DNA of 64,000 nt. It comes from an uncultured Gemmatimonadota bacterium (lineage in GTDB: Bacteria; Gemmatimonadota; Gemmatimonadetes; Palauibacterales; KS3-K002). Position numbers and translations under genes: made by a program. The notes beneath the pieces were generated by a model, which was not told the DNA's origin, did no database searches, and saw only the letters and a list, made by a program, of their open reading frames with translations. Shown here in pieces: positions 14,757 through 35,530 of this stretch. The DNA lies in contig CAYFSW010000170.1 of assembly GCA_964345885.1 (NCBI GenBank), positions 46,169 to 110,168 of the forward strand, written 5' to 3'. Position 1 is the stretch's first letter; the number at the start of each line of letters is the position of its first letter.

Positions 14757-15992
14757 TCAGAAGCCCGCGACTGCAGAAAGGACGTAGAGCAGGCGGAGCG
14801 CGCCGGCAGCACCGTCAGTGTCCTCGAACCACTCGTTGACGGTGTGCGTGTCGCCCGAGCGGCCGCCAGCGCCGAGCGCGATGGCCGGGATGCCCAGCGC
14901 TTGAGGAACGTTGGCGTCGGTAGACGAAATGCCGAGTTCGGGTTCAACCCCGATCTCTCGAGTCGCTTCGTCGGCAGCCTGTACGAGGGGGTGTTCGGCT
15001 GGCAGCTTGCCGGCCGGGCGTTCGCCGATGAGCTCGACTGCAGCGGTCAGCGAGCCTTCTGCCCCGTCCTCCTGCTCGGTGATACTGGTCGCCAGGGCCT
15101 CGCGGATCTGGAGCTCGATATCCCGAAGCGTCTCGTTGGCCTCGGACCGGACATCCAGCTCCACCCAGCTCTCTGCCGGAATGGCGTTGATGCTGGTGCC
15201 TCCGCCGAGCCTGGCGACCGTGAGTGTCGTTCGCGGGTCGAGAGGCAGGTCGAACTCCAGGAGCCGGTGGATAAACTCGGCGATGGCGTTGGCCGGGTTA
15301 ACTCGCCCCCAGTCGGTCCAGGAATGGCCGCCGGGGCCGCTGACGGTGATCCGGAAGCGGCGGCTGCCCAGGGCATTGTGGACGATGCGGCGCAGACCGC
15401 TGCAGTCGACGGCAATGAAGGCCGCGGCATCTGTCAGTGGACTGCCGTCGCGTAGCAGGTGCTTCACGCCGCGTAGGTCGCCTCGGCCCTCTTCGCCGAC
15501 CGTGAAAGCGAAGAGGATTGGGTGATGCGTCGTGGCTCTGGCGTGGACGAGCGCACGGAAGACCGCCAGCGTCACGGCGAGACCCCTGGCGTTGTCTGCG
15601 ACACCCGGTCCAGTCCAGACATCGCGTTCGCCGTGGATCTCGATGGGCACCTCGGGTCCGAACACACTGTCCAGGTGCGCAGCGACGATCACCGGGCCAC
15701 CTGTTGCCGAGTCGCCACGTGGTGGGTACCAGGCGGTTACGTTGCCGATCTCGTCCAGGTCGGGATCGGCGCCGAGTTCTCGGAGCTTCGTGGCGACGGC
15801 CTCGGCGCGGTCAAACTCGCCGAACGGTGGGGAGGGGATACGGGCCAGTTCGACCTGCTCGGCGACGATTGATTCGCCGTTTTCGCTGAGCCAGGCGCGG
15901 GCGATCGCGACTCCTTCGCCCTTGCCCGGTGAAATCGAAGGCCCTTCGGTAGACATGGGCCGAAACATGACCGCGGCTTGCAGGTAAGTCAA
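14757..15992 (-). CDS. M20/M25/M40-family peptidase (ArgE/DapE/PepT-like)
   Basis: Metal-binding motifs AAHLDSV and GVADNARGLAV. Convergent with the nucleotidyltransferase gene. Start may be a downstream ATG (MFRP.. or MSTEG..). Confidence 0.75.
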   Translation of the reverse strand: MTYLQAAVMFRPMSTEGPSISPGKGEGVAIARAWLSENGESIVAEQVELARIPSPPFGEFDRAEAVATKLRELGADPDLDEIGNVTAWYPPRGDSATGGPVIVAAHLDSVFGPEVPIEIHGERDVWTGPGVADNARGLAVTLAVFRALVHARATTHHPILFAFTVGEEGRGDLRGVKHLLRDGSPLTDAAAFIAVDCSGLRRIVHNALGSRRFRITVSGPGGHSWTDWGRVNPANAIAEFIHRLLEFDLPLDPRTTLTVARLGGGTSINAIPAESWVELDVRSEANETLRDIELQIREALATSITEQEDGAEGSLTAAVELIGERPAGKLPAEHPLVQAADEATREIGVEPELGISSTDANVPQALGIPAIALGAGGRSGDTHTVNEWFEDTDGAAGALRLLYVLSAVAGF

Positions 15993-17657
15993 CGCGATTT
16001 CGAGGTTGGTGTGTCCGAATTACTGGCCGTCGATTGGGTAGTGTTTGTTGGAATCGGAATCGCTGCCGGTCTGCTGACCAACGCGGTAGCGATCTGGATG
16101 CTCTTCCATCCTCATGAGTCGGTTCGCTTGAGTCGCCTCAGGGTTTTCCCCCAAGGAGCTATCCCGAAGGAGATCGACCGCATAGCGCACCGCATTGGCC
16201 TGACCGTCGGTACCCACTTGCTGCGCCACGAGGATATAGTGCGGACCCTGGCGCAGCCGGAGTTTCGGGAGCGGTTCGACCAGACCTTGCGTAATGCACT
16301 TCAACGCATGCTCGATCGTGAGCTCGGCAATCTGCGCTCGGAGATCCCCCAAAAACGGCTGGACGAGGTGACCGGGACGGTGACCGAGTTTGGAGAACGG
16401 CTGCTGGAGGGGCTCTCCGAGTACCTGGACGGCGAAGCGTTCGAGAGGCGAGTCCGGGAGTTTGTCGACCGCCTGAATCGCGAGTTTGGCGATGAACCAC
16501 TGGAGCGTGTGCTCACGCCCGAGGCACGCCAGCAGGTGGTCGTGATGCTGCATGATGTGGGAGAGGGAATCGTAAGAGGCCCCGGATTCCGAAGCGCGGT
16601 CGGTGAGTTCTTCGAGCGTAATCTGCGTGACTTCGTCAAGTCCGAAGAACCCCTCGGCAGGTTCGTGCCCACGGGCGCGATCAACTTCGGCGAAGCCGTA
16701 GTGCGTAACTACTTGCCGCTCGTCCTCGACCGCTTCGGTCAGGTGCTCGAGTCGCCGGCCGCCCAGGAACGCGTGCGTCGCGCGCTCAGAAACTTCATCG
16801 ATGGTTACTTGAGCCAGCAGGGGATGTTCCAGCAGATCGTCGGCCGGCTGATAATCACCGAGCGGACGCTGAGCCAGACGGTCCAGGCTCTGGAGCGCGG
16901 CGGAGCGGAGGAGGTCGCTGCACTGCTTCGCGAGCCGCTCATCCAAGATCGCGCCGCCGCCGCGGTCAACGATGCGATCGACGATATGTTGGCGCGACCA
17001 GTGAGGGAGATCTTCGGCGACATGGCTGACGACGAGCTTGGCCGGGTCGGCGGGGTGCTCACCGACCGCATCGTCGAGTTCGCCGGGCACGAGACAACCG
17101 AAGAGTTTGTCATCACTCGGACCGATCAGCTACTCAAGGCGTCTGAGGGCAAGAAACTGGGCGACGTACTGGAGTACCTCGGGCCCGAGGCTGCGAGCCG
17201 GCTTACCGATCGCCTCGCCGATTGGATAGTGGAGATCGCCCGCGGCGATAGAGTCAGGGACCTGCTGGAGGCAGCGCTGGTTCGACAGACCGAATGGCTG
17301 CTGACCGTACCGATCGGGCGGATAGGCGACTACCTGCCTGCCGACGCACTCGACCGGGCCGAGCAGATCATGTTCGACCCCTTGTGGGAATTCCTGCAGG
17401 CGCGGGTGCCCGCCCTCGTATCGGAGTTGCCTATTGCTGAAATGGTCGAGAATAGGATCCGTGCTTATCCCATCGAGGAACTCGAGCGACTGATCTGGAC
17501 GGTAACGCGCCGCGAGCTCAGGCTGATCATCTATCTTGGCGGCTTTCTCGGTGCGGTTGTCGGCTCGCTCATGGTCGTTGCCCAGGCTCCGACCGTTGGC
17601 CTCGCCTACTTGGGTGCGATCGTGCTTGCTTCGTATCTGTTCCTCAACTTCCGTTGA
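15978..17657 (+). CDS. DUF445-family membrane protein
   Basis: N-terminal TM segment (VVFVGIGIAAGLLTNAVAIWMLFHP) and C-terminal TM (LIIYLGGFLGAVVGSLMVV) flank a long helical region typical of DUF445. The true start is probably a GTG/TTG slightly downstream of 15978. Confidence 0.6.
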   Translation: MQVSQRDFEVGVSELLAVDWVVFVGIGIAAGLLTNAVAIWMLFHPHESVRLSRLRVFPQGAIPKEIDRIAHRIGLTVGTHLLRHEDIVRTLAQPEFRERFDQTLRNALQRMLDRELGNLRSEIPQKRLDEVTGTVTEFGERLLEGLSEYLDGEAFERRVREFVDRLNREFGDEPLERVLTPEARQQVVVMLHDVGEGIVRGPGFRSAVGEFFERNLRDFVKSEEPLGRFVPTGAINFGEAVVRNYLPLVLDRFGQVLESPAAQERVRRALRNFIDGYLSQQGMFQQIVGRLIITERTLSQTVQALERGGAEEVAALLREPLIQDRAAAAVNDAIDDMLARPVREIFGDMADDELGRVGGVLTDRIVEFAGHETTEEFVITRTDQLLKASEGKKLGDVLEYLGPEAASRLTDRLADWIVEIARGDRVRDLLEAALVRQTEWLLTVPIGRIGDYLPADALDRAEQIMFDPLWEFLQARVPALVSELPIAEMVENRIRAYPIEELERLIWTVTRRELRLIIYLGGFLGAVVGSLMVVAQAPTVGLAYLGAIVLASYLFLNFR

Positions 17658-21652: not shown

Positions 21653-21728
21653 GCGCCCGTAGCTCAATTGGACAGAGCACTGGGCTTCGGACCCAGGTGT
21701 TGGGGGTTCGAATCCTCCCGGGCGCGCC
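21653..21728 (+). tRNA. tRNA-Arg (anticodon TCG)
   Basis: Cloverleaf folds by hand: acceptor GCGCCCG/CGGGCGC, D-arm GCTC..GAGC, anticodon stem CTGGG/CCCAG with loop CTTCGGA (anticodon TCG), T-arm GGGGG-TTCGAAT-CCTCC, discriminator G. Confidence 0.8.
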
Positions 21729-21734
21729 TTTTAT

Positions 21735-21860
21735 TGGGAATTCGGGAATCAGGGAATCTGCGATTCAGGGAGTTGGGGAATTCTGGGAGGTGGGATATGG
21801 GAAGGGGAATCCGTGGAATCCGTGGAATCGGGGATTCCGGGATCCCCGATTCCCTCAATC
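21735..21860. repeat. intergenic tandem-octamer repeat element, copy A (GGGAATYC / CCGTGGAATC units)
   Basis: GGGAATTCGGGAATCAGGGAATCT...GGGGAATCCGTGGAATCCGTGGAATCGGGGATTCC. Shares its core with the elements at 27394-27615 and 35306-35530. Confidence 0.8.
21824..21853. terminator. 12-bp perfect-stem hairpin at the 3' end of repeat A; putative bidirectional terminator for tRNA-Arg (+) and nadA (-)
   Basis: GGAATCGGGGAT-TCCGGG-ATCCCCGATTCC. Lies 8 nt beyond the nadA stop codon on the minus strand. Confidence 0.4.
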
Positions 21861-23042: not shown

Positions 23043-23426
23043 GGCCGCGAGGGGGGCGAGGGGCCGCGGGTCGGCGTCCCTAAAGGGCGTGCGATTCGAG
23101 GAAAGTCCGAGCTCCAAAGGGCAAGGTGCCGGGTAACGCCCGGGCGGCGAAAGCCGACGGAAAGTGCCACAGAGAACAGACCGCCTGCGGCTAGCGCGCT
23201 AGCGCGGCTGCCGGTAAGGGTGAAACGGTGGAGTAAGAGCCCACCGCCCGCGCGGGTAACCGCCGGGGCACGGCAAACCCCACCTGGAGCAAGGCCAAGC
23301 AGGGGACAGTGGTGGCCCGCCGCGTGATGATCCCCGGGTAGGCCGCGTGAGACGCCGGGCGACCGGCGTCCCAGATGAATGGCCCGCTGAACAGAACTCG
23401 GCTTACGGCTCCCCTCCGCGGCTTCT
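23043..23426 (+). ncRNA. rnpB: RNase P RNA (bacterial type A)
   Basis: Universally conserved blocks GAGGAAAGTCCGAGCTCC, AGGGCAAGGTGCCGGGTAACGCCCGGG, GTGCCACAGAGAACAGACCGCC, GGTAAGGGTGAAACGGTGGAGTAAGAGCCCACC and ACAGAACTCGGCTTACGG. The 5' GGCCGCGAGGGGG pairs with the 3' CCCCTCCGCGGC (P1). Confidence 0.85.
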
Positions 23427-23460
23427 GTTTAGAGTGCAAACCAAGACGAGGACCTTACAC

Positions 23461-24753
23461 TTGCCTGAGAACGGCGTCGTCCACTTCAAGCTGCAGGAGC
23501 GAAGCCTTGACAACGGGCTGCGGGTGATCGTCCAGGAGGACAACACCGCGCCTGTCGTCTCGGTCCATATCATGTATCACGTCGGATCGAAGCACGAGCC
23601 GCGCGGCCGAACCGGCTTCGCTCATCTCTTCGAGCACCTGATGTTCCAGGGCTCCGAGCATGTGCCTGACGAAGCTCACTTCAGGCTCATCCAGGATGCC
23701 GGCGGTACATTGAACGGAAGCACCTGGTTCGACCGGACGAACTACTTCGAGACGTTGCCGGCAAATGAGATCGAGCTGGGATTGTGGCTCGAATCGGACA
23801 GGCTCGGTTGGTTGGAGTCGGCGATCACGCAAGAGAAACTGGACAACCAGCGCGACGTCGTGAAGAACGAGCGTCGCCAGGCGTACGAGAACCGACCCTA
23901 CGGCCTGGCGGTCGAGACCATCCTGCGGATGGCCTACCCCGAGGGACATCCCTACCACCACCCGACGATTGGGTACATGGAGGATCTCGACACAGCCAGC
24001 CTGGACGATGTCAGGGATTTCTTCAGGACTTTCTATACGCCGGATAACGCAGTGCTCGTGTTGGCCGGAGCGCTGCAGGCCGAGCGCGGTTACGAGCTGG
24101 CTGACAGGTATTTCGGCGAGATCCCGCGCGGCCCGGCCACGCCCCAGGTAACGGCGCCGGCTGTGCCGCCGGGCTCCGAAGTCCGCGAGACGATCCACGA
24201 CAACGTACAGTTCCCGCGCGTCTACATCTTCCACCACTCACCGGCTTTCGGGCAGCCGGGGTTCGAGGCTGCAGACGTGCTGTGCAGCGTCCTGTCGGAC
24301 GGCAAGTCCTCCCGTCTGTACCGCAAGCTCGTCTATGAGGATCGCATCGCTCAGGACGTCTCAGCCCAGGTGTGGCCCACCGAGGATTGCGGCCTGTCAT
24401 TCATTGTGGCTACCGCGCGTCCTGGGGTCGAAGCCGAGACGCTGGAATCGGCGATCCTCGGAATGCTCGACGATGTTAGAGGGGGAACGATCACGCAGCG
24501 CGAAGCCGAGGGTGGTGTCAACCGGGCGACGCGTGAGCTGGTGAACGCCTTCGATGGTGTCGGCAGTCGTTCCGACGCCATAGCCACGTCGGCGACATTC
24601 CTGGGGCGCCCCGAATATGTCAATGAACTGTTTCCCCGCGTGCGTGCCGTGACCAGCGAGGCGATGGTCGAGGTGGCCAATGAGTGGCTGATCCCCGAGC
24701 GGCGGGCCACGCTTTACATTCTGCCCGAGAGCTCTGGGGAGGGGGGCAAGTGA
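23461..24753 (+). CDS. M16-family zinc peptidase (pitrilysin-like), catalytic subunit
   Basis: Inverted zinc-binding motif HLFEHLMFQG (HxxEH) and downstream E. TTG start at 23461 with GAGGA 9 nt upstream. ORF-track starts upstream would overlap rnpB. Confidence 0.75.
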   Translation: MPENGVVHFKLQERSLDNGLRVIVQEDNTAPVVSVHIMYHVGSKHEPRGRTGFAHLFEHLMFQGSEHVPDEAHFRLIQDAGGTLNGSTWFDRTNYFETLPANEIELGLWLESDRLGWLESAITQEKLDNQRDVVKNERRQAYENRPYGLAVETILRMAYPEGHPYHHPTIGYMEDLDTASLDDVRDFFRTFYTPDNAVLVLAGALQAERGYELADRYFGEIPRGPATPQVTAPAVPPGSEVRETIHDNVQFPRVYIFHHSPAFGQPGFEAADVLCSVLSDGKSSRLYRKLVYEDRIAQDVSAQVWPTEDCGLSFIVATARPGVEAETLESAILGMLDDVRGGTITQREAEGGVNRATRELVNAFDGVGSRSDAIATSATFLGRPEYVNELFPRVRAVTSEAMVEVANEWLIPERRATLYILPESSGEGGK

Positions 24754-26132: not shown

Positions 26133-26599
26133 GACCGAAGACCTGCCCCTCGGATACCCGCCACCGTTCCGCTCCAGCCAGAGGCCCACCTCGTCTGTAA
26201 GCTGTTTGTGTCTATCGAGATGCGTGGTCGGAGCTGCGGCGGCCAGGAAACAGATGTGTCCCGAAGGAAACCCTCGGAGCCGCTGGCGCGTCTATATTAA
26301 GTAGAGAGGCGAGGCAGAGCCCCTCCGACGATAACGTATCGGAGGTTACGGTACCGCAGCCGGCCGCCGCCCTGGGTCGGAAGATGCGGGCAGAAGTACA
26401 TACAGAAATCAGACACAAGTACTGAAAAACTTGCAGGATGTGCGGCGCAACAGCGCAAGAAGGGAGGACGCAAGCGACACTGTAATTGGTTAGTCTATTA
26501 ACACTTAGGCCACTGACCCGGGTCTGCGGGACGGCCTTCTGGGCCGGGGAATGGAACCTGCACGCGTGTTGGGGTGGGAGAAAAAGGGAGACCCGGCGA

Positions 26600-27322
26600 A
26601 TGATCGATGACGGAGTAAAGGGCGGCGTTGTTGTATTGCAGCCGCAGACGAGCCCAGCGACGGAAACGTCGCCGGAGATAGAGGGCGGAAGTCAAGAGAT
26701 GGTACAGGTAGCGAAGAAAGAGGCCAAGGAGCGCGAGCTATCGCTCACCGAGCTTCAGGACAACGAGCTGGTGGCGCGGTTTCTCGCCGGCAACGGGCTG
26801 GCGTTTCCAGAGCTGGTCCGCCGCTACCAGTCACGTCTGCTCAACTTCATCTACCGGACGATTGGGGATCGAGATCGGGCGGAGGACCTGGTGCAGGAGA
26901 CGTTCATCCGGGTCTACCGGCATTTGCACCGGTTTGACCAGGCGAAGAAGTTCTCGACCTGGATCTACACGATCGCCAGCAACCTAGCGAAGAACGAGCT
27001 GCGCAACCGGTCGAGAAACCCGCTGGTCCTCTTCCAGACGATCAAGAAGAACTGGGAGGCGGACCATCGGCCGCTCCAATGGGAGGATCCGCACTACCGT
27101 CCGGATGATCTGTTCAGGAAGCGTCACCTGCGTGACACGGTGGAGAAAGCGGTCGAGCAGTTGCCGGAACACCATCGCATCGTCTTCGTGCTCAGGGAGA
27201 TGGAGGGCAAGACATACGAGGAAATCTCCGAGATCACCGGTGTTAACCTGGGCACGGTTAAGTCGAGGCTGAATAGGGCCCGTAACAACTTCGCGCAGAT
27301 CATTGCACCGATGCTGCGCTAG
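26600..27322 (+). CDS. ECF-type RNA polymerase sigma-70 family factor (RpoE-like) with extended region 2-4 linker
   Basis: Region 2 (DLVQETFIRVYRHLHRFD...FSTWIYTIASNLAKNELR) and region 4 (EEISEITGVNLGTVKSRLNRAR). RBS AAAGGGAGA upstream of the ATG at 26600. An alternative ATG lies at 26701. Confidence 0.8.
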   Translation: MIDDGVKGGVVVLQPQTSPATETSPEIEGGSQEMVQVAKKEAKERELSLTELQDNELVARFLAGNGLAFPELVRRYQSRLLNFIYRTIGDRDRAEDLVQETFIRVYRHLHRFDQAKKFSTWIYTIASNLAKNELRNRSRNPLVLFQTIKKNWEADHRPLQWEDPHYRPDDLFRKRHLRDTVEKAVEQLPEHHRIVFVLREMEGKTYEEISEITGVNLGTVKSRLNRARNNFAQIIAPMLR

Positions 27323-27360
27323 CCGCAGGCAGGGTCGATTCCGAGGCGCTGCAGGTTCAA

Positions 27361-27392
27361 GGCGCCGGCCATAGGCCGGCGCCTTTCATATT
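27361..27392 (+). terminator. rho-independent terminator downstream of the sigma factor gene
   Basis: GGCGCCGGCC-ATAG-GCCGGCGCC perfect hairpin followed by TTTCATATT. Confidence 0.6.
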
Positions 27393-27393
27393 G

Positions 27394-27615
27394 CCAAATC
27401 GGGAAATCGGGATATCGGGAATTCGGGAATCCGGAATTCGGGCATTGGGGACCGAGGAAGGGGAGTCCGTGGAATCCGTGGTATCCGTGGTATCGGGGAA
27501 TCGGGGAGTTGGGGGAATCGGGAACTCCCGAATTCCCGGATGCCACGGATTCTTGAATTCCGAGTCCGCGGCTTCCAGATTCCCGGATTCCCGGCTCCCA
27601 AGATCGATATTCGTT
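27394..27615. repeat. intergenic tandem-octamer repeat element, copy B (internally palindromic)
   Basis: AAATCGGGAAATCGGGATATCGGGAATTCGGG...GAGTCCGTGGAATCCGTGGTATCCGTGGTATCGGGGAATCGGGG...CCCGAATTCCCGGATGCCACGGATTC...ATTCCCGGATTCCCGG. The second half is the reverse complement of the first. Confidence 0.8.
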
Positions 27616-27719
27616 ATTCCCTCACCGGAGGTGGAACTCAGCGGTGCCTCAGGCGTAGAAGGGTTCAATCACCGATTCTCAGCCAAGCAGTGTGGAGATC
27701 GGCCTCGGGACGCGCGATC

Positions 27720-28283
27720 ATGGAATGTGAAGAGTTTCTAACGGACTATTCCGACTTCCTCGACCGCCAGTTTGAGGAGCACCCCATAGTAAGCTACTGC
27801 GATCACCTGCTCAGCTGCTCGGACTGCGCCGCCTACGACCGGGTGATGCGACGCGGTCTCAAGCTGGTGAGAGGGCTCGAGCAGCCGGAGGCACAGCCGG
27901 ATCTGGTACCTCGGGTAGGTGAGAGGGTCCTCAGCCGAGGCGTGAGCGGGAGCGGGGGCGCGGAAAGCACCAGGACCGCCTTGGTCGCCGCGGCGGCCAT
28001 CCTGGCGCTCTGCGTGGTGGGGTCGCTGGCGGTGCTGCGCTCGGGAGGGACGACGGAGCTTCCGCCGCTGGTCGTGGAACCGGCGGTGGCCGATGAGCTG
28101 CCCTCGCTGTGGGGTCCGGCACCCAAGCTCACCCCGGCGGTGAGTCTCCTTCGAGTCCCCGAACTGACTGACGACCGCCTCTTCAGACCACCACCGGAGC
28201 GGTTCTCGGCGTTTCGCGCTCCGCTCAGGGCGTCGCGCCGGCCGTCGTCGCTTGACGCTTTACAGACGGCAGCGCCGGAGTAG
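27720..28283 (+). CDS. zinc-dependent (ZAS-type) membrane-anchored anti-sigma factor
   Basis: HxxxCxxC motif (CDHLLSCSDCAAY) about 25 aa from the ATG at 27720; central TM helix (ALVAAAAILALCVVGSLAVL). The ORF-track start at 27540 lies inside repeat B and is rejected. Confidence 0.65.
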   Translation: MECEEFLTDYSDFLDRQFEEHPIVSYCDHLLSCSDCAAYDRVMRRGLKLVRGLEQPEAQPDLVPRVGERVLSRGVSGSGGAESTRTALVAAAAILALCVVGSLAVLRSGGTTELPPLVVEPAVADELPSLWGPAPKLTPAVSLLRVPELTDDRLFRPPPERFSAFRAPLRASRRPSSLDALQTAAPE

Positions 28284-34435: not shown

Positions 34436-35305
34436 GTGAGCAGGTACGGGTCGATGAGCCCGGGCGGCATGAGGTTCGCCTATCGGATGACACCGTGGGT
34501 GAAGCGCCTGATCATAGCCAACGCTGTGTTATGGCTCTTGACCTGGTTGCGCCTGATCCCGCCCCAGCTGGCCTACGACTATCTCGGTTTCACCGCGACG
34601 GAGGTCCTCAGAGAGCCCTGGACGATCATCACCTACATGTTCGTCCACGGCGGCTTCTTCCACGTCTTCATCAACATGCTGAGGCTCTTCTTCTTCGGGC
34701 CGCCGCTCGAGGAGCGTTGGGGCGGGAAGGAGTTCTTGAAATACTACGCGATCTGCGGTGTCGCCGGTGCGCTGTTCAGTGTCGGCGCGCTGGCGTTCCC
34801 CAGCCTGGGGACCGGGACCATCCCGATCGTAGGCGCCTCCGGTGCGGTCTACGGTGTCATGCTAGCGTACGCGCTGAACTGGCCGAACAGTCTCGTCTGG
34901 ATCTACGCCATATTTCCCATCAAGGTGAAGTACCTGGTCATGATCCTGGGAGCGATGACCTTCTTCTCGGCCTTCGGCGGGGCGACCGACGGGATCGCCC
35001 ACTTCGCCCACCTGGGCGGCCTCGTCGTGGGCTACATCTACCTCAAGAAGGGCTGGCAGTTGGGGGCGCACCTGGAGGCCTGGAAGAAGCGGTTGCGCAA
35101 GCGGAGACTCAGGGTGGTGCAGGGCGGTACGGGCAAGCCGGCCCGCCCCACGCCGGCCGATGAGGAAGCCCGCATCCTGGAGGTCGTCGACAAGTTGCTC
35201 GACAAGATTGCCGCCAGCGGCCTCGAATCGCTGACTCCCGAGGAACGCCGCTTCCTCGACGAGGTCTCGCGCCGCCGCCAGGCGCAGCACGAAGTCCGAC
35301 ACTAG
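34436..35305 (+). CDS. rhomboid-family intramembrane serine protease
   Basis: Six to seven TM helices; catalytic GASGAVYG serine motif and downstream His (AHFAHLGG); charged C-terminal tail. Confidence 0.8.
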   Translation: MSRYGSMSPGGMRFAYRMTPWVKRLIIANAVLWLLTWLRLIPPQLAYDYLGFTATEVLREPWTIITYMFVHGGFFHVFINMLRLFFFGPPLEERWGGKEFLKYYAICGVAGALFSVGALAFPSLGTGTIPIVGASGAVYGVMLAYALNWPNSLVWIYAIFPIKVKYLVMILGAMTFFSAFGGATDGIAHFAHLGGLVVGYIYLKKGWQLGAHLEAWKKRLRKRRLRVVQGGTGKPARPTPADEEARILEVVDKLLDKIAASGLESLTPEERRFLDEVSRRRQAQHEVRH

Positions 35306-35530
35306 AAATTCGGCGATTCCGGCATTCCGGGATTCGGGGAGCAAGGGAAACTCGTCCCCAATTCCCCAATTCCCCGATTCCACGGACTCCACGGATTCCA
35401 CGGATTCCCGGTTCCGCAGCCCCAAAAACCTCATTCCCCGACTCCCCGACTCCCCGACTCCCCGAATCCCCAACTCCCGAACTCTCTTGACTCTCCGCTC
35501 CGCCGAAAATACGATTCCGGCCCGATCCAC
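35306..35530. repeat. intergenic tandem-octamer repeat element, copy C (inverted relative to A and B)
   Basis: CCCCAATTCCCCAATTCCCCGATTCCACGGACTCCACGGATTCCACGGATTCCCGG...CCCCGACTCCCCGACTCCCCGACTCCCCGAATCCCC is the reverse complement of the GGAATCCGTGG / GGGGAGTCGGGG units of A and B. Confidence 0.8.

What the first reader, a model, noticed from the sequence alone, without database searches (positions are those of the whole stretch)
26600..28283. ECF sigma factor and its ZAS anti-sigma factor separated by a strong terminator plus a 220-bp repeat element
Sigma/anti-sigma pairs are normally adjacent and co-transcribed. Here the ECF sigma gene (26600-27322) is followed by a perfect-stem intrinsic terminator (27361-27392) and repeat copy B (27394-27615), with the ZAS anti-sigma (HxxxCxxC, one TM helix) beginning only at 27720. 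This layout would uncouple or attenuate anti-sigma expression relative to sigma, or make read-through regulated. The sigma factor also has an unusually long (about 35 aa) region 2-4 linker.
Basis: partly seen in the sequence, partly recalled or inferred. Interest (0 to 1): 0.5.

Follow-up and report, generated by a model that had tools for sequence, protein, structure and literature searches.

The report
Split ECF sigma/anti-sigma gene pair
In this Gemmatimonadota genome and 27 related loci, a stress-type sigma factor gene and its zinc-finger anti-sigma gene are kept as two separate transcription units, divided by a terminator and a second ECF-type promoter; the 220-bp repeat between them is only a passenger.

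Summary
There is an ECF sigma gene (26600-27322), a perfect 12-bp hairpin with a U-rich tail (27359-27392), a 220-bp palindromic repeat (27394-27615), and a membrane protein with a ZAS-type anti-sigma domain (27720-28283). The "unusually long linker" claim is wrong. The sigma aligns almost without gaps to AlgU and RpoE, and what it has extra is an N-terminal extension of about 47 aa.

The repeat does not cause the separation. In all 22 related Gemmatimonadota loci that hold both genes, and in 3 outgroup genomes, the genes are 177-781 nt apart and never contiguous. Each intergenic region has a GC hairpin plus T-run after the sigma stop. Each also has a promoter-like motif 77-95 nt before the anti-sigma ATG: TGGAAC-N16/17-[CA]GTA in the clade, GGAAC-N17-NGTA in the outgroups (window 27632-27657). 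Within the clade a different ECF-type motif, GGAAAC-N17-C[GA]TCTA (26266-26294), lies about 300 nt upstream of sigma.

Most likely the pair forms two monocistronic units, with the anti-sigma gene driven by its own ECF-type promoter as negative feedback. Precedents are C. glutamicum rshA, Streptomyces rsbN and the sigE terminator. I rate this a conserved variant of a known circuit, of modest interest. Transcription itself is untested.

The parts
26266..26294 (+). P1: ECF-type promoter-like motif GGAAAC-N17-CGTCTA, about 306 nt upstream of the sigma ATG
   Evidence: One match in the window against 0.01 expected. Exactly one match, upstream of sigma, in all 16 related loci that hold this region. 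The footprint shows invariant hexamers and a variable spacer.
26301..26599 (+). Inferred ~300-nt leader of the sigma mRNA, with conserved blocks (26410-26435 CAGACACAAGTACTGAAAAACTTGCA; 26547-26563 GGGAATGGAACCTGCAC; SD-like GGGAGAAAAAGGGAG)
   Evidence: Alignments of 12-13 orthologous regions. No consensus structure was found, and the fold is no more stable than shuffled sequence, z = +0.29. Its function is unknown.
26600..27322 (+). ECF (group 4) sigma factor, 240 aa, RpoE/AlgU/SigW-like, with an N-terminal extension of about 47 aa
   Evidence: Pfam r2 and r4_2; NCBIfam TIGR02937 above its cut-off; PDB hits AlgU 5.5e-32, RpoE 9.8e-27, SigW 8.3e-24. It is 80-97% identical in 22 related loci, the most conserved gene of the block.
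27359..27392 (+). Intrinsic-terminator-like hairpin (12-bp perfect stem, loop AUA) with tail UUUCAUAUU
   Evidence: An equivalent GC hairpin (-21 to -42 kcal/mol), in most loci followed by a clear T-run, lies 14-36 nt after the sigma stop in all 22 related intergenic regions, with different stem sequences, and in the outgroups.
27394..27615 (.). Repeat copy B: an imperfect palindrome built of tandem 8-9-nt units, (GGGAATYC)n / (GGAATCCGT)n on the left arm and their complements on the right
   Evidence: It is present at the orthologous site in L001, L002, L003, L005 and, much shorter, L010, with block indels. It is absent from 13 more distant loci.
27632..27657 (+). P2: ECF-type promoter-like motif TGGAAC-N16-CGTA, 87 nt before the anti-sigma ATG (measured from the GGAAC)
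   Evidence: Two matches in the window against 0.15 expected. Exactly one match per locus, always at this position, in 24 of 24 loci. Footprint. Outgroups carry GGAAC-N17-[ACT]GTA.
27664..27719 (+). Inferred 5'UTR of the anti-sigma mRNA
   Evidence: Its sequence is conserved among close relatives. No consensus structure was found, and it is less stable than shuffled sequence, z = +1.3.
27720..28283 (+). Membrane-anchored class I (ZAS-type) anti-sigma factor candidate, 187 aa: cytoplasmic anti-sigma domain at residues 1-52 (C3, H29, C33, C36), TM helix at 83-107, and a conserved extracytoplasmic tail
   Evidence: Orthologues at the same position in outgroups carry PF13490.
21733..21858 (.). Repeat copy A, directly after tRNA-Arg(TCG) at 21653-21728
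35306..35485 (.). Repeat copy C, in inverted orientation, between a gene end (35305) and a sigma70-like promoter match at 35487-35515

Best explanation
The ECF sigma gene and its cognate ZAS-type anti-sigma gene are two separate transcription units, and this layout is ancestral in Gemmatimonadota.

Proposed order of events:
1. The sigma mRNA starts at an ECF-type promoter, P1 (GGAAAC-N17-CGTCTA, 26266-26294).
2. It carries a leader of about 300 nt and ends at an intrinsic terminator (27359-27392).
3. After a spacer of variable length, which in this lineage holds a palindromic repeat, a second and different ECF-type promoter, P2 (TGGAAC-N16-CGTA, 27632-27657), starts a separate anti-sigma mRNA with a 5'UTR of about 56 nt.

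P2 is most likely read by the sigma factor itself. Released sigma would then induce its own inhibitor, a dedicated negative-feedback arm, and the sigma to anti-sigma ratio could be set independently of sigma synthesis. The repeat is a passenger in neutral spacer DNA just after the terminator.

Shown here: the gene identities, the conserved separation, the conserved hairpins, and the two conserved motifs with promoter-like footprints.

Inferred: that the hairpin terminates, that P1 and P2 fire, and which sigma reads each.
For: - Gaps of 177-474 nt in 22 of 22 related loci holding both genes, and 237-781 nt in 3 outgroup genomes. One outgroup has an opposite-strand gene in the gap.
- A GC hairpin 14-36 nt after the sigma stop in all 23 intergenic regions, with unrelated stem sequences. 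Most are followed by a clear T-run.
- The P2 motif occurs exactly once per ~10-kb locus in 24 of 24 loci, always 77-95 nt before the anti-sigma ATG. The hexamer and GTA are invariant and the spacer is free. The window has 2 matches against 0.15 expected.
- P1 occurs once per locus in 16 of 16 loci holding that region, against 0.01 expected in the window.
- The sigma is RpoE/AlgU/SigW-like and the anti-sigma is RsiW/MucA-like. GGAAC/AAC -35 and CGT -10 elements with 16-17-nt spacers are the ECF promoter type; a CGTA -10 is the sigW signature (PMC5758882).
- M16-M16-sigma-anti-sigma-holA-SPOR synteny is kept in every locus that extends far enough, with mutS next in the 24 clade loci, which argues for a cognate pair.
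- Precedents: a SigH-dependent monocistronic rshA promoter in C. glutamicum (PMC3489674); the rsbN promoter as a direct BldN target (PMC6101532); and >90% termination just after sigE in S. coelicolor (PMC6767563).
Against: - There are no transcript data, so termination efficiency and promoter activity are untested.
- The window terminator has an interrupted U-tract (UUUCAUAUU), and the simple scanner did not list it. Three relatives (L011, L014, L023) have weak T-runs.
- P1 and P2 differ consistently (GGAAAC vs TGGAAC; CGTC vs [CA]GTA), so at least one of them may be read by a different ECF sigma.
- P1 in its strict form was not found in the three outgroups.
- No second target with the P2 motif was seen in about 300 kb of held sequence. 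The only other match, 16806-16831 on the minus strand, is antisense inside a gene. There is therefore no regulon evidence tying P2 to this sigma.
- No terminator is visible after the anti-sigma gene, so holA could be co-transcribed with it.
Confidence: 0.63

Rival explanations
1. Cascade or cross-regulation: P1 and P2 are read by two different ECF sigma factors. For example, sigma may be switched on by another ECF sigma through P1 while only P2 is its own target, or the reverse. The locus would then be a node in a sigma cascade rather than a self-contained autoregulated module.
For: The two motifs differ at both elements, and each version is invariant across all loci. In B. subtilis the last base of the -10 element (CGTA vs CGTC/CGAC) discriminates between ECF sigmas (PMC5758882). 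The sigE promoter of S. coelicolor is not a sigma-E target (PMC6767563).
Against: Both motifs share the ECF core (G-A-A-C ... C/A-G-T) with 16-17-nt spacing, so one sigma could read both with different strengths. No other ECF gene or regulon was examined. The question cannot be settled without a whole-genome motif scan or biochemistry.
Confidence: 0.2
2. Regulated read-through: anti-sigma expression depends mainly on read-through of the hairpin, possibly modulated by the repeat. The conserved TGGAAC...GTA box would then be something other than a promoter, such as a regulator site.
For: The U-tract is imperfect in the window and weak in a few relatives. The repeat, if transcribed, would form a long hairpin. 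In C. glutamicum, sigH and rshA are also co-transcribed from upstream promoters (PMC3489674).
Against: The box has the two-block, fixed-spacing footprint of a promoter and lies at a constant distance from the ATG. Thirteen of the 22 related intergenic regions carry no repeat at all. One outgroup has an opposite-strand gene between the two genes. Neither the intergenic RNA nor the 5'UTR shows conserved structure of the kind expected for an attenuator.
Confidence: 0.1
3. Recent operon disruption: the repeat inserted into a formerly contiguous sigma-anti-sigma operon in this genome.
For: The repeat fills 222 of the 397 intergenic bases, and two related copies lie elsewhere in the window.
Against: The genes are at least 177 nt apart in every relative, with or without a repeat. 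The flanks, meaning the terminator on one side and ATCGATATTCG.TATTCCC plus P2 on the other, are conserved around the repeat in six species, and the repeat itself is shared with block indels.
Confidence: 0.02
4. The downstream ORF is not an anti-sigma factor. It would be an unrelated lineage-specific membrane protein that happens to carry an HxxxCxxC motif.
For: The window protein itself has no Pfam hit at E <= 1 and only sub-threshold NCBIfam hits. Foldseek against the PDB found nothing.
Confidence: 0.05

Closest known systems
Corynebacterium glutamicum sigH-rshA (ECF sigma plus ZAS anti-sigma)
   Same: The anti-sigma gene has its own promoter, which depends on the sigma factor it inhibits and produces a monocistronic anti-sigma transcript. 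The authors propose that this ensures an excess of anti-sigma and a fast shut-off (PMC3489674). The anti-sigma is of the ZAS type.
   Different: In C. glutamicum the two genes are adjacent and are also co-transcribed from four housekeeping promoters, with no terminator between them. RshA is a small soluble protein. Here there is a conserved terminator and a spacer of 177-781 nt, the sigma gene itself has an ECF-type rather than housekeeping-type upstream motif, and the anti-sigma is membrane-anchored.
Streptomyces venezuelae bldN / rsbN
   Same: There are separate bldN and rsbN promoters, the rsbN promoter is a direct target of sigma-BldN, and RsbN is a single-pass membrane anti-sigma (PMC6101532). 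From my own knowledge, not checked here, BldN also has an N-terminal extension.
   Different: RsbN belongs to a different structural class of anti-sigma factor with no ZAS motif, and both promoters are under BldD-c-di-GMP control. No such regulator is known for this locus.
Streptomyces coelicolor sigE-cseABC
   Same: A terminator directly after an ECF sigma gene stops about 90% of transcription before the downstream regulatory genes (PMC6767563).
   Different: The downstream genes there are a lipoprotein and a two-component system, not an anti-sigma factor. They have no reported promoter of their own, and the sigE promoter is not an ECF-type autoregulated promoter.
Bacillus subtilis sigW-rsiW and Pseudomonas/E. 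coli algU-mucA / rpoE-rseA
   Same: These are the closest solved relatives of both proteins. RsiW is a ZAS-motif, single-pass membrane anti-sigma. The P2 -10 element CGTA equals the sigW signature (PMC5758882).
   Different: Those pairs are contiguous genes in an operon that encodes both the sigma and the anti-sigma and is activated by the sigma itself, the general motif described in PMC13578229. Here the pair is split into two units. The scores stay below every NCBIfam equivalog cut-off, so this sigma is not an orthologue of any of them.

Membership tests
ECF (group 4) sigma-70 family | Only sigma-2 and sigma-4 domains are present, with no region 1.1 or region 3 | tested here: met
   Pfam Sigma70_r2 (residues 72-139) and Sigma70_r4_2 (residues 180-228) with no r3 hit. 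TIGR02937 sigma70-ECF scores 115.2 bits against a cut-off of 42.9.
Specific equivalogs RpoE / SigW / AlgU-type | Score above the curated NCBIfam equivalog cut-off | tested here: not met
   The best hits score 134-136 bits against cut-offs of 204-236. The sigma is related to these families but is not a member of any named equivalog.
ZAS / zf-HC2 class I anti-sigma factors | H-x3-C-x2-C motif plus an upstream Cys or His ligand in the N-terminal domain | tested here: met
   C3, H29, C33 and C36 are invariant in 29 sequences.
ZAS / zf-HC2 class I anti-sigma factors | Match to the Pfam PF13490 profile | tested here: inconclusive
   The window protein has no hit at E <= 1. Eleven of 29 homologues hit, best 4.9e-6. 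The outgroup orthologues carry PF13490.
ZAS / zf-HC2 class I anti-sigma factors | Helical anti-sigma domain fold | tested here: met
ZAS / zf-HC2 class I anti-sigma factors | Binds and inhibits its cognate sigma factor and binds zinc | not testable with these tools
   The only evidence is conserved gene neighbourhood in 25 genomes.
Rho-independent (intrinsic) terminator | G+C-rich hairpin followed at once by a U-tract, placed after a stop codon | tested here: met
   The hairpin is conserved in position with different stems in 23 intergenic regions. The U-tract is interrupted in the window, and the tool's strict rule did not list it.
Rho-independent (intrinsic) terminator | Actually terminates transcription | not testable with these tools
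   No transcript data were available.
ECF-type promoter | A -35 element containing AAC and a -10 element containing CGT (or GT), separated by 16-17 nt, conserved upstream of a gene | tested here: met
   P2. P1.
ECF-type promoter | Initiation that depends on the cognate ECF sigma | not testable with these tools
   This needs in vitro transcription or reporter assays.
REP/MITE-like dispersed intergenic palindromic repeats | Several intergenic copies per genome with an imperfect palindromic structure | tested here: met
   There are three copies in 64 kb, all intergenic and directly after gene or terminator ends. Copy B folds as a hairpin with z = -4.25.
REP/MITE-like dispersed intergenic palindromic repeats | Terminal inverted repeats with target-site duplications (MITE), or an associated RAYT-type transposase (REP) | not tested
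   No target-site duplications were evident by eye. The whole genome was not available for scanning.

The most novel reading that the evidence does not exclude
The locus may be a conserved two-input circuit rather than a self-contained autoregulated pair. The two invariant but different ECF-type motifs (P1 GGAAAC-N17-CGTCTA; P2 TGGAAC-N16/17-[CA]GTA) would be read by different sigma factors. The conserved, unstructured ~300-nt sigma leader, with its invariant boxes CAGACA.AAGTACTGAAAA and GGGAATGGAACCTGCAC, would add a further post-transcriptional or operator-type control. This would make the exceptionally conserved ECF sigma, which is better conserved than MutS and HolA in the same block, a phylum-wide core regulator with an expression logic not yet described for ECF systems.
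Probability: 0.2. Interest if true: 0.55.

Novelty: new variant of a known kind. Interest (0 to 1): 0.33.

Why it matters
ECF sigma/anti-sigma pairs are usually pictured as one autoregulated operon, which fixes the sigma to anti-sigma synthesis ratio (PMC13578229). Here a whole phylum-level lineage, in 25 genomes with no exception found, keeps the two genes as separate units, each with a terminator or promoter of its own.

That is comparative evidence that uncoupling the positive arm from the negative arm is selected for, rather than being an accident of a repeat insertion. It also provides two clean, conserved candidate promoter motifs and a cognate protein pair from the little-studied, mostly uncultured Gemmatimonadota. 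These could be tested directly in heterologous systems or used as orthogonal regulatory parts.

For annotation, the result shows that a gap plus a terminator does not rule out a cognate anti-sigma factor, and that dispersed palindromic repeats collect in the neutral spacer just after terminators.

Tried and rejected
- The simple terminator scan did not list the 27359-27392 hairpin, because it counts T residues after the full 12-bp stem.
- I looked for a cis-regulatory RNA. Rfam at gathering thresholds found only tRNA and RNase P. In E-value mode it found only a sub-threshold sucA-II match (24.6 bits against 70), which I treat as chance.
- RNAalifold found no consensus structure in the anti-sigma 5'UTR or the sigma leader. 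Both fold no better than shuffled sequence.
- I rejected the longer ORF from ATG 27540 (247 aa). Its extension runs through the repeat, and the homologues start at the Met of 27720.
- The second P2-pattern match, at 16806-16831 on the minus strand, is antisense inside the 15978-17657 gene, so I treat it as chance.
- A conserved TGGAAC box 45 nt before the sigma ATG (26552-26557) has no conserved -10 element 16-17 nt downstream, so I did not call it a promoter.
- The metagenome scan with the repeat core GGAATCCGTGGWATCCGTGG hit more than 119 contigs with GC content of 0.45-0.73, mostly other palindromic elements. The core is therefore not lineage-specific and gave no functional clue.
Full report
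**What is in the window**

The window comes from a Gemmatimonadota MAG. The product of 27720-28283 is 100% identical to an NCBI protein of "Gemmatimonadetes bacterium".

The gene at 26600-27322 encodes a 240-aa ECF sigma factor:
- Pfam Sigma70_r2 (1.2e-21) and Sigma70_r4_2 (6e-17), with no region 3.
- TIGR02937 sigma70-ECF scores 115 bits against a cut-off of 42.9, but every equivalog model (RpoE, SigW and others) stays far below its cut-off.
- The closest solved relatives are AlgU (5.5e-32), RpoE (9.8e-27) and SigW (8.3e-24).
- The ATG at 26600 and the SD-like GGGAGAAAAAGGGAG before it are conserved in 12 orthologous regions.

Residues 48-240 align to AlgU residues 2-192, and residues 53-239 align to RpoE-model positions 6-190, so the net excess is about 2 residues. 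What the protein has extra is an N-terminal extension of about 47 aa. Outgroup orthologues are only 208-211 aa long.

**Terminator and repeat**

A hairpin lies 36 nt after the stop codon: 27359-27370 pairs with 27374-27385 (12 perfect pairs, 10 of them G-C), the loop is AUA, and the tail UUUCAUAUU runs to 27392 (z = -3.6). The simple scanner did not list it, only because of its T-count rule.

Repeat B follows directly at 27394-27615. It consists of tandem 8-9-nt units, (GGGAATYC)n and (GGAATCCGT)n, followed by their complements, and it folds as a long imperfect palindrome. Related copies lie right after tRNA-Arg (copy A, about 21733-21858) and in inverted orientation after the gene ending at 35305 (copy C).

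**The downstream ORF is an anti-sigma factor**

On its own the 187-aa product of 27720-28283 gives no Pfam hit, only a weak RsrA match (E = 0.0057, residues 2-38). The family-level evidence is much stronger:
- Its 41 database homologues are those that carry a source name all labelled Gemmatimonadota/Gemmatimonadales.
- In an alignment of 29 sequences, M1, C3, H29, C33 and C36 are invariant. From my recollection of RsrA (C11/H37/C41/C44), the Cys-to-His spacing is the same.
- 11 of 29 members hit PF13490 zf-HC2, best 4.9e-6.
- The family profile's two best PDB hits are RsiW (8.9e-4) and RsrA (0.054).
- An AF2 model has a confident helical N-terminal domain (residues 1-52, pLDDT above 93) and a TM helix at 83-107.
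- Outgroup orthologues at the same genomic position carry PF13490.

The anti-sigma assignment therefore survives a profile and fold test. The extracytoplasmic tail has invariant LPP..E, SLWGP.P and FR motifs but matches no known family.

**Comparative anatomy**

A scan of species-representative genomes with the anti-sigma alignment returned 24 Gemmatimonadota loci. The gene order M16 peptidase, M16 peptidase, sigma, anti-sigma, holA, SPOR-domain protein, mutS is kept in every locus that extends far enough. The sigma is the most conserved protein of the block (80-97% identity) and the anti-sigma the least (38-84%).

In all 22 loci that hold both genes, the sigma stop and the anti-sigma ATG are 177-474 nt apart and never contiguous. 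Every intergenic region has the same three-part plan:
1. **Hairpin.** A G+C-rich hairpin of -21 to -42 kcal/mol lies 14-36 nt after the stop codon, followed in most loci by a clear T-run. The stem sequences differ between species.
2. **Variable spacer.**
3. **P2 motif.** The motif TGGAAC-N16/17-[CA]GTA lies 77-95 nt before the ATG.

The P2 pattern occurs exactly once in each of the 24 loci of about 10 kb, both strands searched, and always at this position. The window has 2 matches against 0.15 expected. Information content is maximal in the two blocks and low in the spacer, which is a promoter-type footprint.

Three more distant orthologues, from Longimicrobiales and others, show the same order with gaps of 237, 347 and 781 nt. 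All three have a hairpin plus T-run and GGAAC-N17-[ACT]GTA. In the 5.4-Mb genome an opposite-strand DUF2277 gene lies between sigma and anti-sigma. The split is therefore ancestral and phylum-wide.

**A second promoter-like motif upstream of sigma**

The strict P2 pattern is absent upstream of sigma. A different ECF-type motif, GGAAAC-N17-C[GA]TCTA, sits at 26266-26294, about 306 nt before the ATG. The window has 1 match against 0.01 expected. It occurs once, at the equivalent position, in all 16 loci that hold this region. The other loci are truncated there, or in L011 interrupted by a 100-N assembly gap.

The anti-sigma 5'UTR likewise has none.

**The repeat is a passenger**

The genomes with the shortest gaps (177-209 nt) have no repeat, yet they keep the terminator and P2. 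In the window, L001, L002, L003, L005 and, much shortened, L010, the octamer element lies at the same site between conserved flanks. These flanks are the terminator on one side and ATCGATATTCG.TATTCCC plus P2 on the other. The copies differ by block insertions and deletions, so the element was already present in the common ancestor of that subclade.

Other lineages carry different palindromic arrays of short tandem units at the same post-terminator position (L008, L015, L019). The spacer just after the terminator is evidently a tolerated landing or expansion site, and all three copies in the window start directly after a gene or tRNA end. The 9-mer core of the element is not lineage-specific: it occurs in more than 119 metagenome contigs of very different G+C content, mostly in other palindromic elements.

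**Mechanism**

Shown here: a cognate-looking ECF sigma and ZAS anti-sigma pair, a conserved physical separation, a conserved terminator-like hairpin, and two conserved ECF-type promoter-like motifs, one before each gene.

Inferred: the sigma mRNA starts at P1 and ends at the hairpin, and a separate anti-sigma mRNA starts about 7 nt after 27657.

I consider it most likely, at about 0.55-0.65, that P2 is read by this sigma. Free sigma would then induce its inhibitor through a dedicated negative-feedback arm whose strength is independent of sigma synthesis. P1 may be read by the same sigma, giving classical positive autoregulation at a differently tuned site. Alternatively it may be read by another ECF sigma, giving a cascade. 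The consistent differences between P1 and P2 keep this open, because in B. subtilis the last -10 base (CGTA vs CGTC) discriminates between ECF sigmas (PMC5758882).

By analogy with RsiW, MucA and RseA, which are single-pass membrane anti-sigma factors, release of sigma probably follows an envelope signal sensed by the conserved extracytoplasmic tail. This step is pure inference. No terminator is visible between the anti-sigma stop and holA, so P2 transcripts may continue into holA.

**Comparison with what is known**

The usual picture is an operon encoding both sigma and anti-sigma that is activated by the sigma itself (PMC13578229). Three departures resemble this locus:
- In C. glutamicum, rshA has an extra SigH-dependent promoter that produces a monocistronic transcript, proposed to guarantee an excess of anti-sigma and a fast shut-off. 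However, sigH and rshA are adjacent and also co-transcribed (PMC3489674).
- In Streptomyces venezuelae, bldN and rsbN have separate promoters and rsbN is a direct BldN target, but RsbN is not a ZAS protein (PMC6101532).
- In S. coelicolor, more than 90% of sigE transcripts stop at a terminator directly after sigE, but the downstream genes are not an anti-sigma factor (PMC6767563).

The present locus combines these features (terminator, own ECF-type promoter, ZAS membrane anti-sigma), and the combination is conserved across a phylum.

**Verdict**

This is a new, well-conserved variant of a known regulatory arrangement, not a new kind of system. Interest is modest at 0.33. It is a solid comparative case with directly testable promoter motifs, and two points remain unexplained: the pair of different motifs and the conserved sigma leader. 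All statements about function still await transcript or biochemical data.

Noticed in passing
window 26301-26599: The inferred sigma leader of about 300 nt holds blocks that are invariant across species: CAGACACAAGTACTGAAAAACTTGCA at 26410-26435, and GGGAATGGAACCTGCAC at 26547-26563. The second block contains the same TGGAAC hexamer as P2 and is also present in outgroups L144 and L146. There is no consensus structure, and the fold is no more stable than shuffled sequence. The blocks could be an operator, an sRNA site or a further promoter.
   Followed up: partly
window 23048-23421: Bacterial RNase P RNA class A (253 bits). It overlaps the 5' end of the mechanical ORF 23347-24753, so the M16 peptidase gene must start further downstream than that ORF suggests.
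   Followed up: no
window 21653-21858: tRNA-Arg(TCG) at 21653-21728 is followed within 5 nt by repeat copy A. Copy C (35306-35485) likewise starts right at a stop codon and ends just before a sigma70-like TTGACT-17-TACGAT match. All three copies lie directly after gene ends.
   Followed up: partly
L019:4586-5000, L008:3611-4003, L015:4527-5000: Other species carry different palindromic arrays of short tandem units at the same post-terminator site, for example (GACAGCC)n ... (GGCTGTC)n in L019. This suggests a recurrent hot spot, or a common mechanism that generates 'tandem-unit palindromes' just after terminators.
   Followed up: no
L025-L143 (metagenome contigs): The core (GGAATCCGT)2 occurs in more than 119 contigs with G+C content of 0.45-0.73. 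It often appears as inverted pairs of the form aaaaacgCCACGGATTCCACGGAT ... ATCCGTGGAATCCGTGGcgttttt that flank 70-100-bp segments. This looks like a widespread palindromic repeat theme shared by unrelated bacteria.
   Followed up: partly
window 27357-27577: A sub-threshold Rfam match to sucA-II RNA (RF01758): 24.6 bits against a gathering score of 70, E = 0.005, spanning the full model length. It covers the terminator and most of repeat B. I take it as a hairpin-driven chance match.
   Followed up: no
window 26600-28283 and L001-L024: The ECF sigma is the most conserved protein of the syntenic block (80-97% identity), more conserved than MutS and HolA. More than 7,000 database proteins match it at E <= 1e-30. 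Its anti-sigma partner is the least conserved (38-84% identity) and has only 41 detectable homologues.
   Followed up: partly
L144:3637-4417: In a 5.4-Mb Gemmatimonadota genome, a DUF2277 gene on the opposite strand is inserted between the sigma and anti-sigma genes.
   Followed up: no
window 28030-28283 (anti-sigma residues ~105-187): The extracytoplasmic tail of the anti-sigma has invariant LPP..E, SLWGP.P and FR motifs. It matches no Pfam family and the AF2 model is low-confidence there. It may be an uncharacterised sensor module.
   Followed up: no
window 16806-16831 (-): This is the only other exact match to the P2 pattern in the window. It lies antisense inside the 559-aa membrane-protein gene at 15978-17657, so it is probably chance.
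   Followed up: yes
L011:4402-4501: The 'complete' chromosome record CP070722 has a 100-N gap inside the sigma gene, with unrelated sequence upstream, which suggests a scaffolding join at this locus.
   Followed up: no
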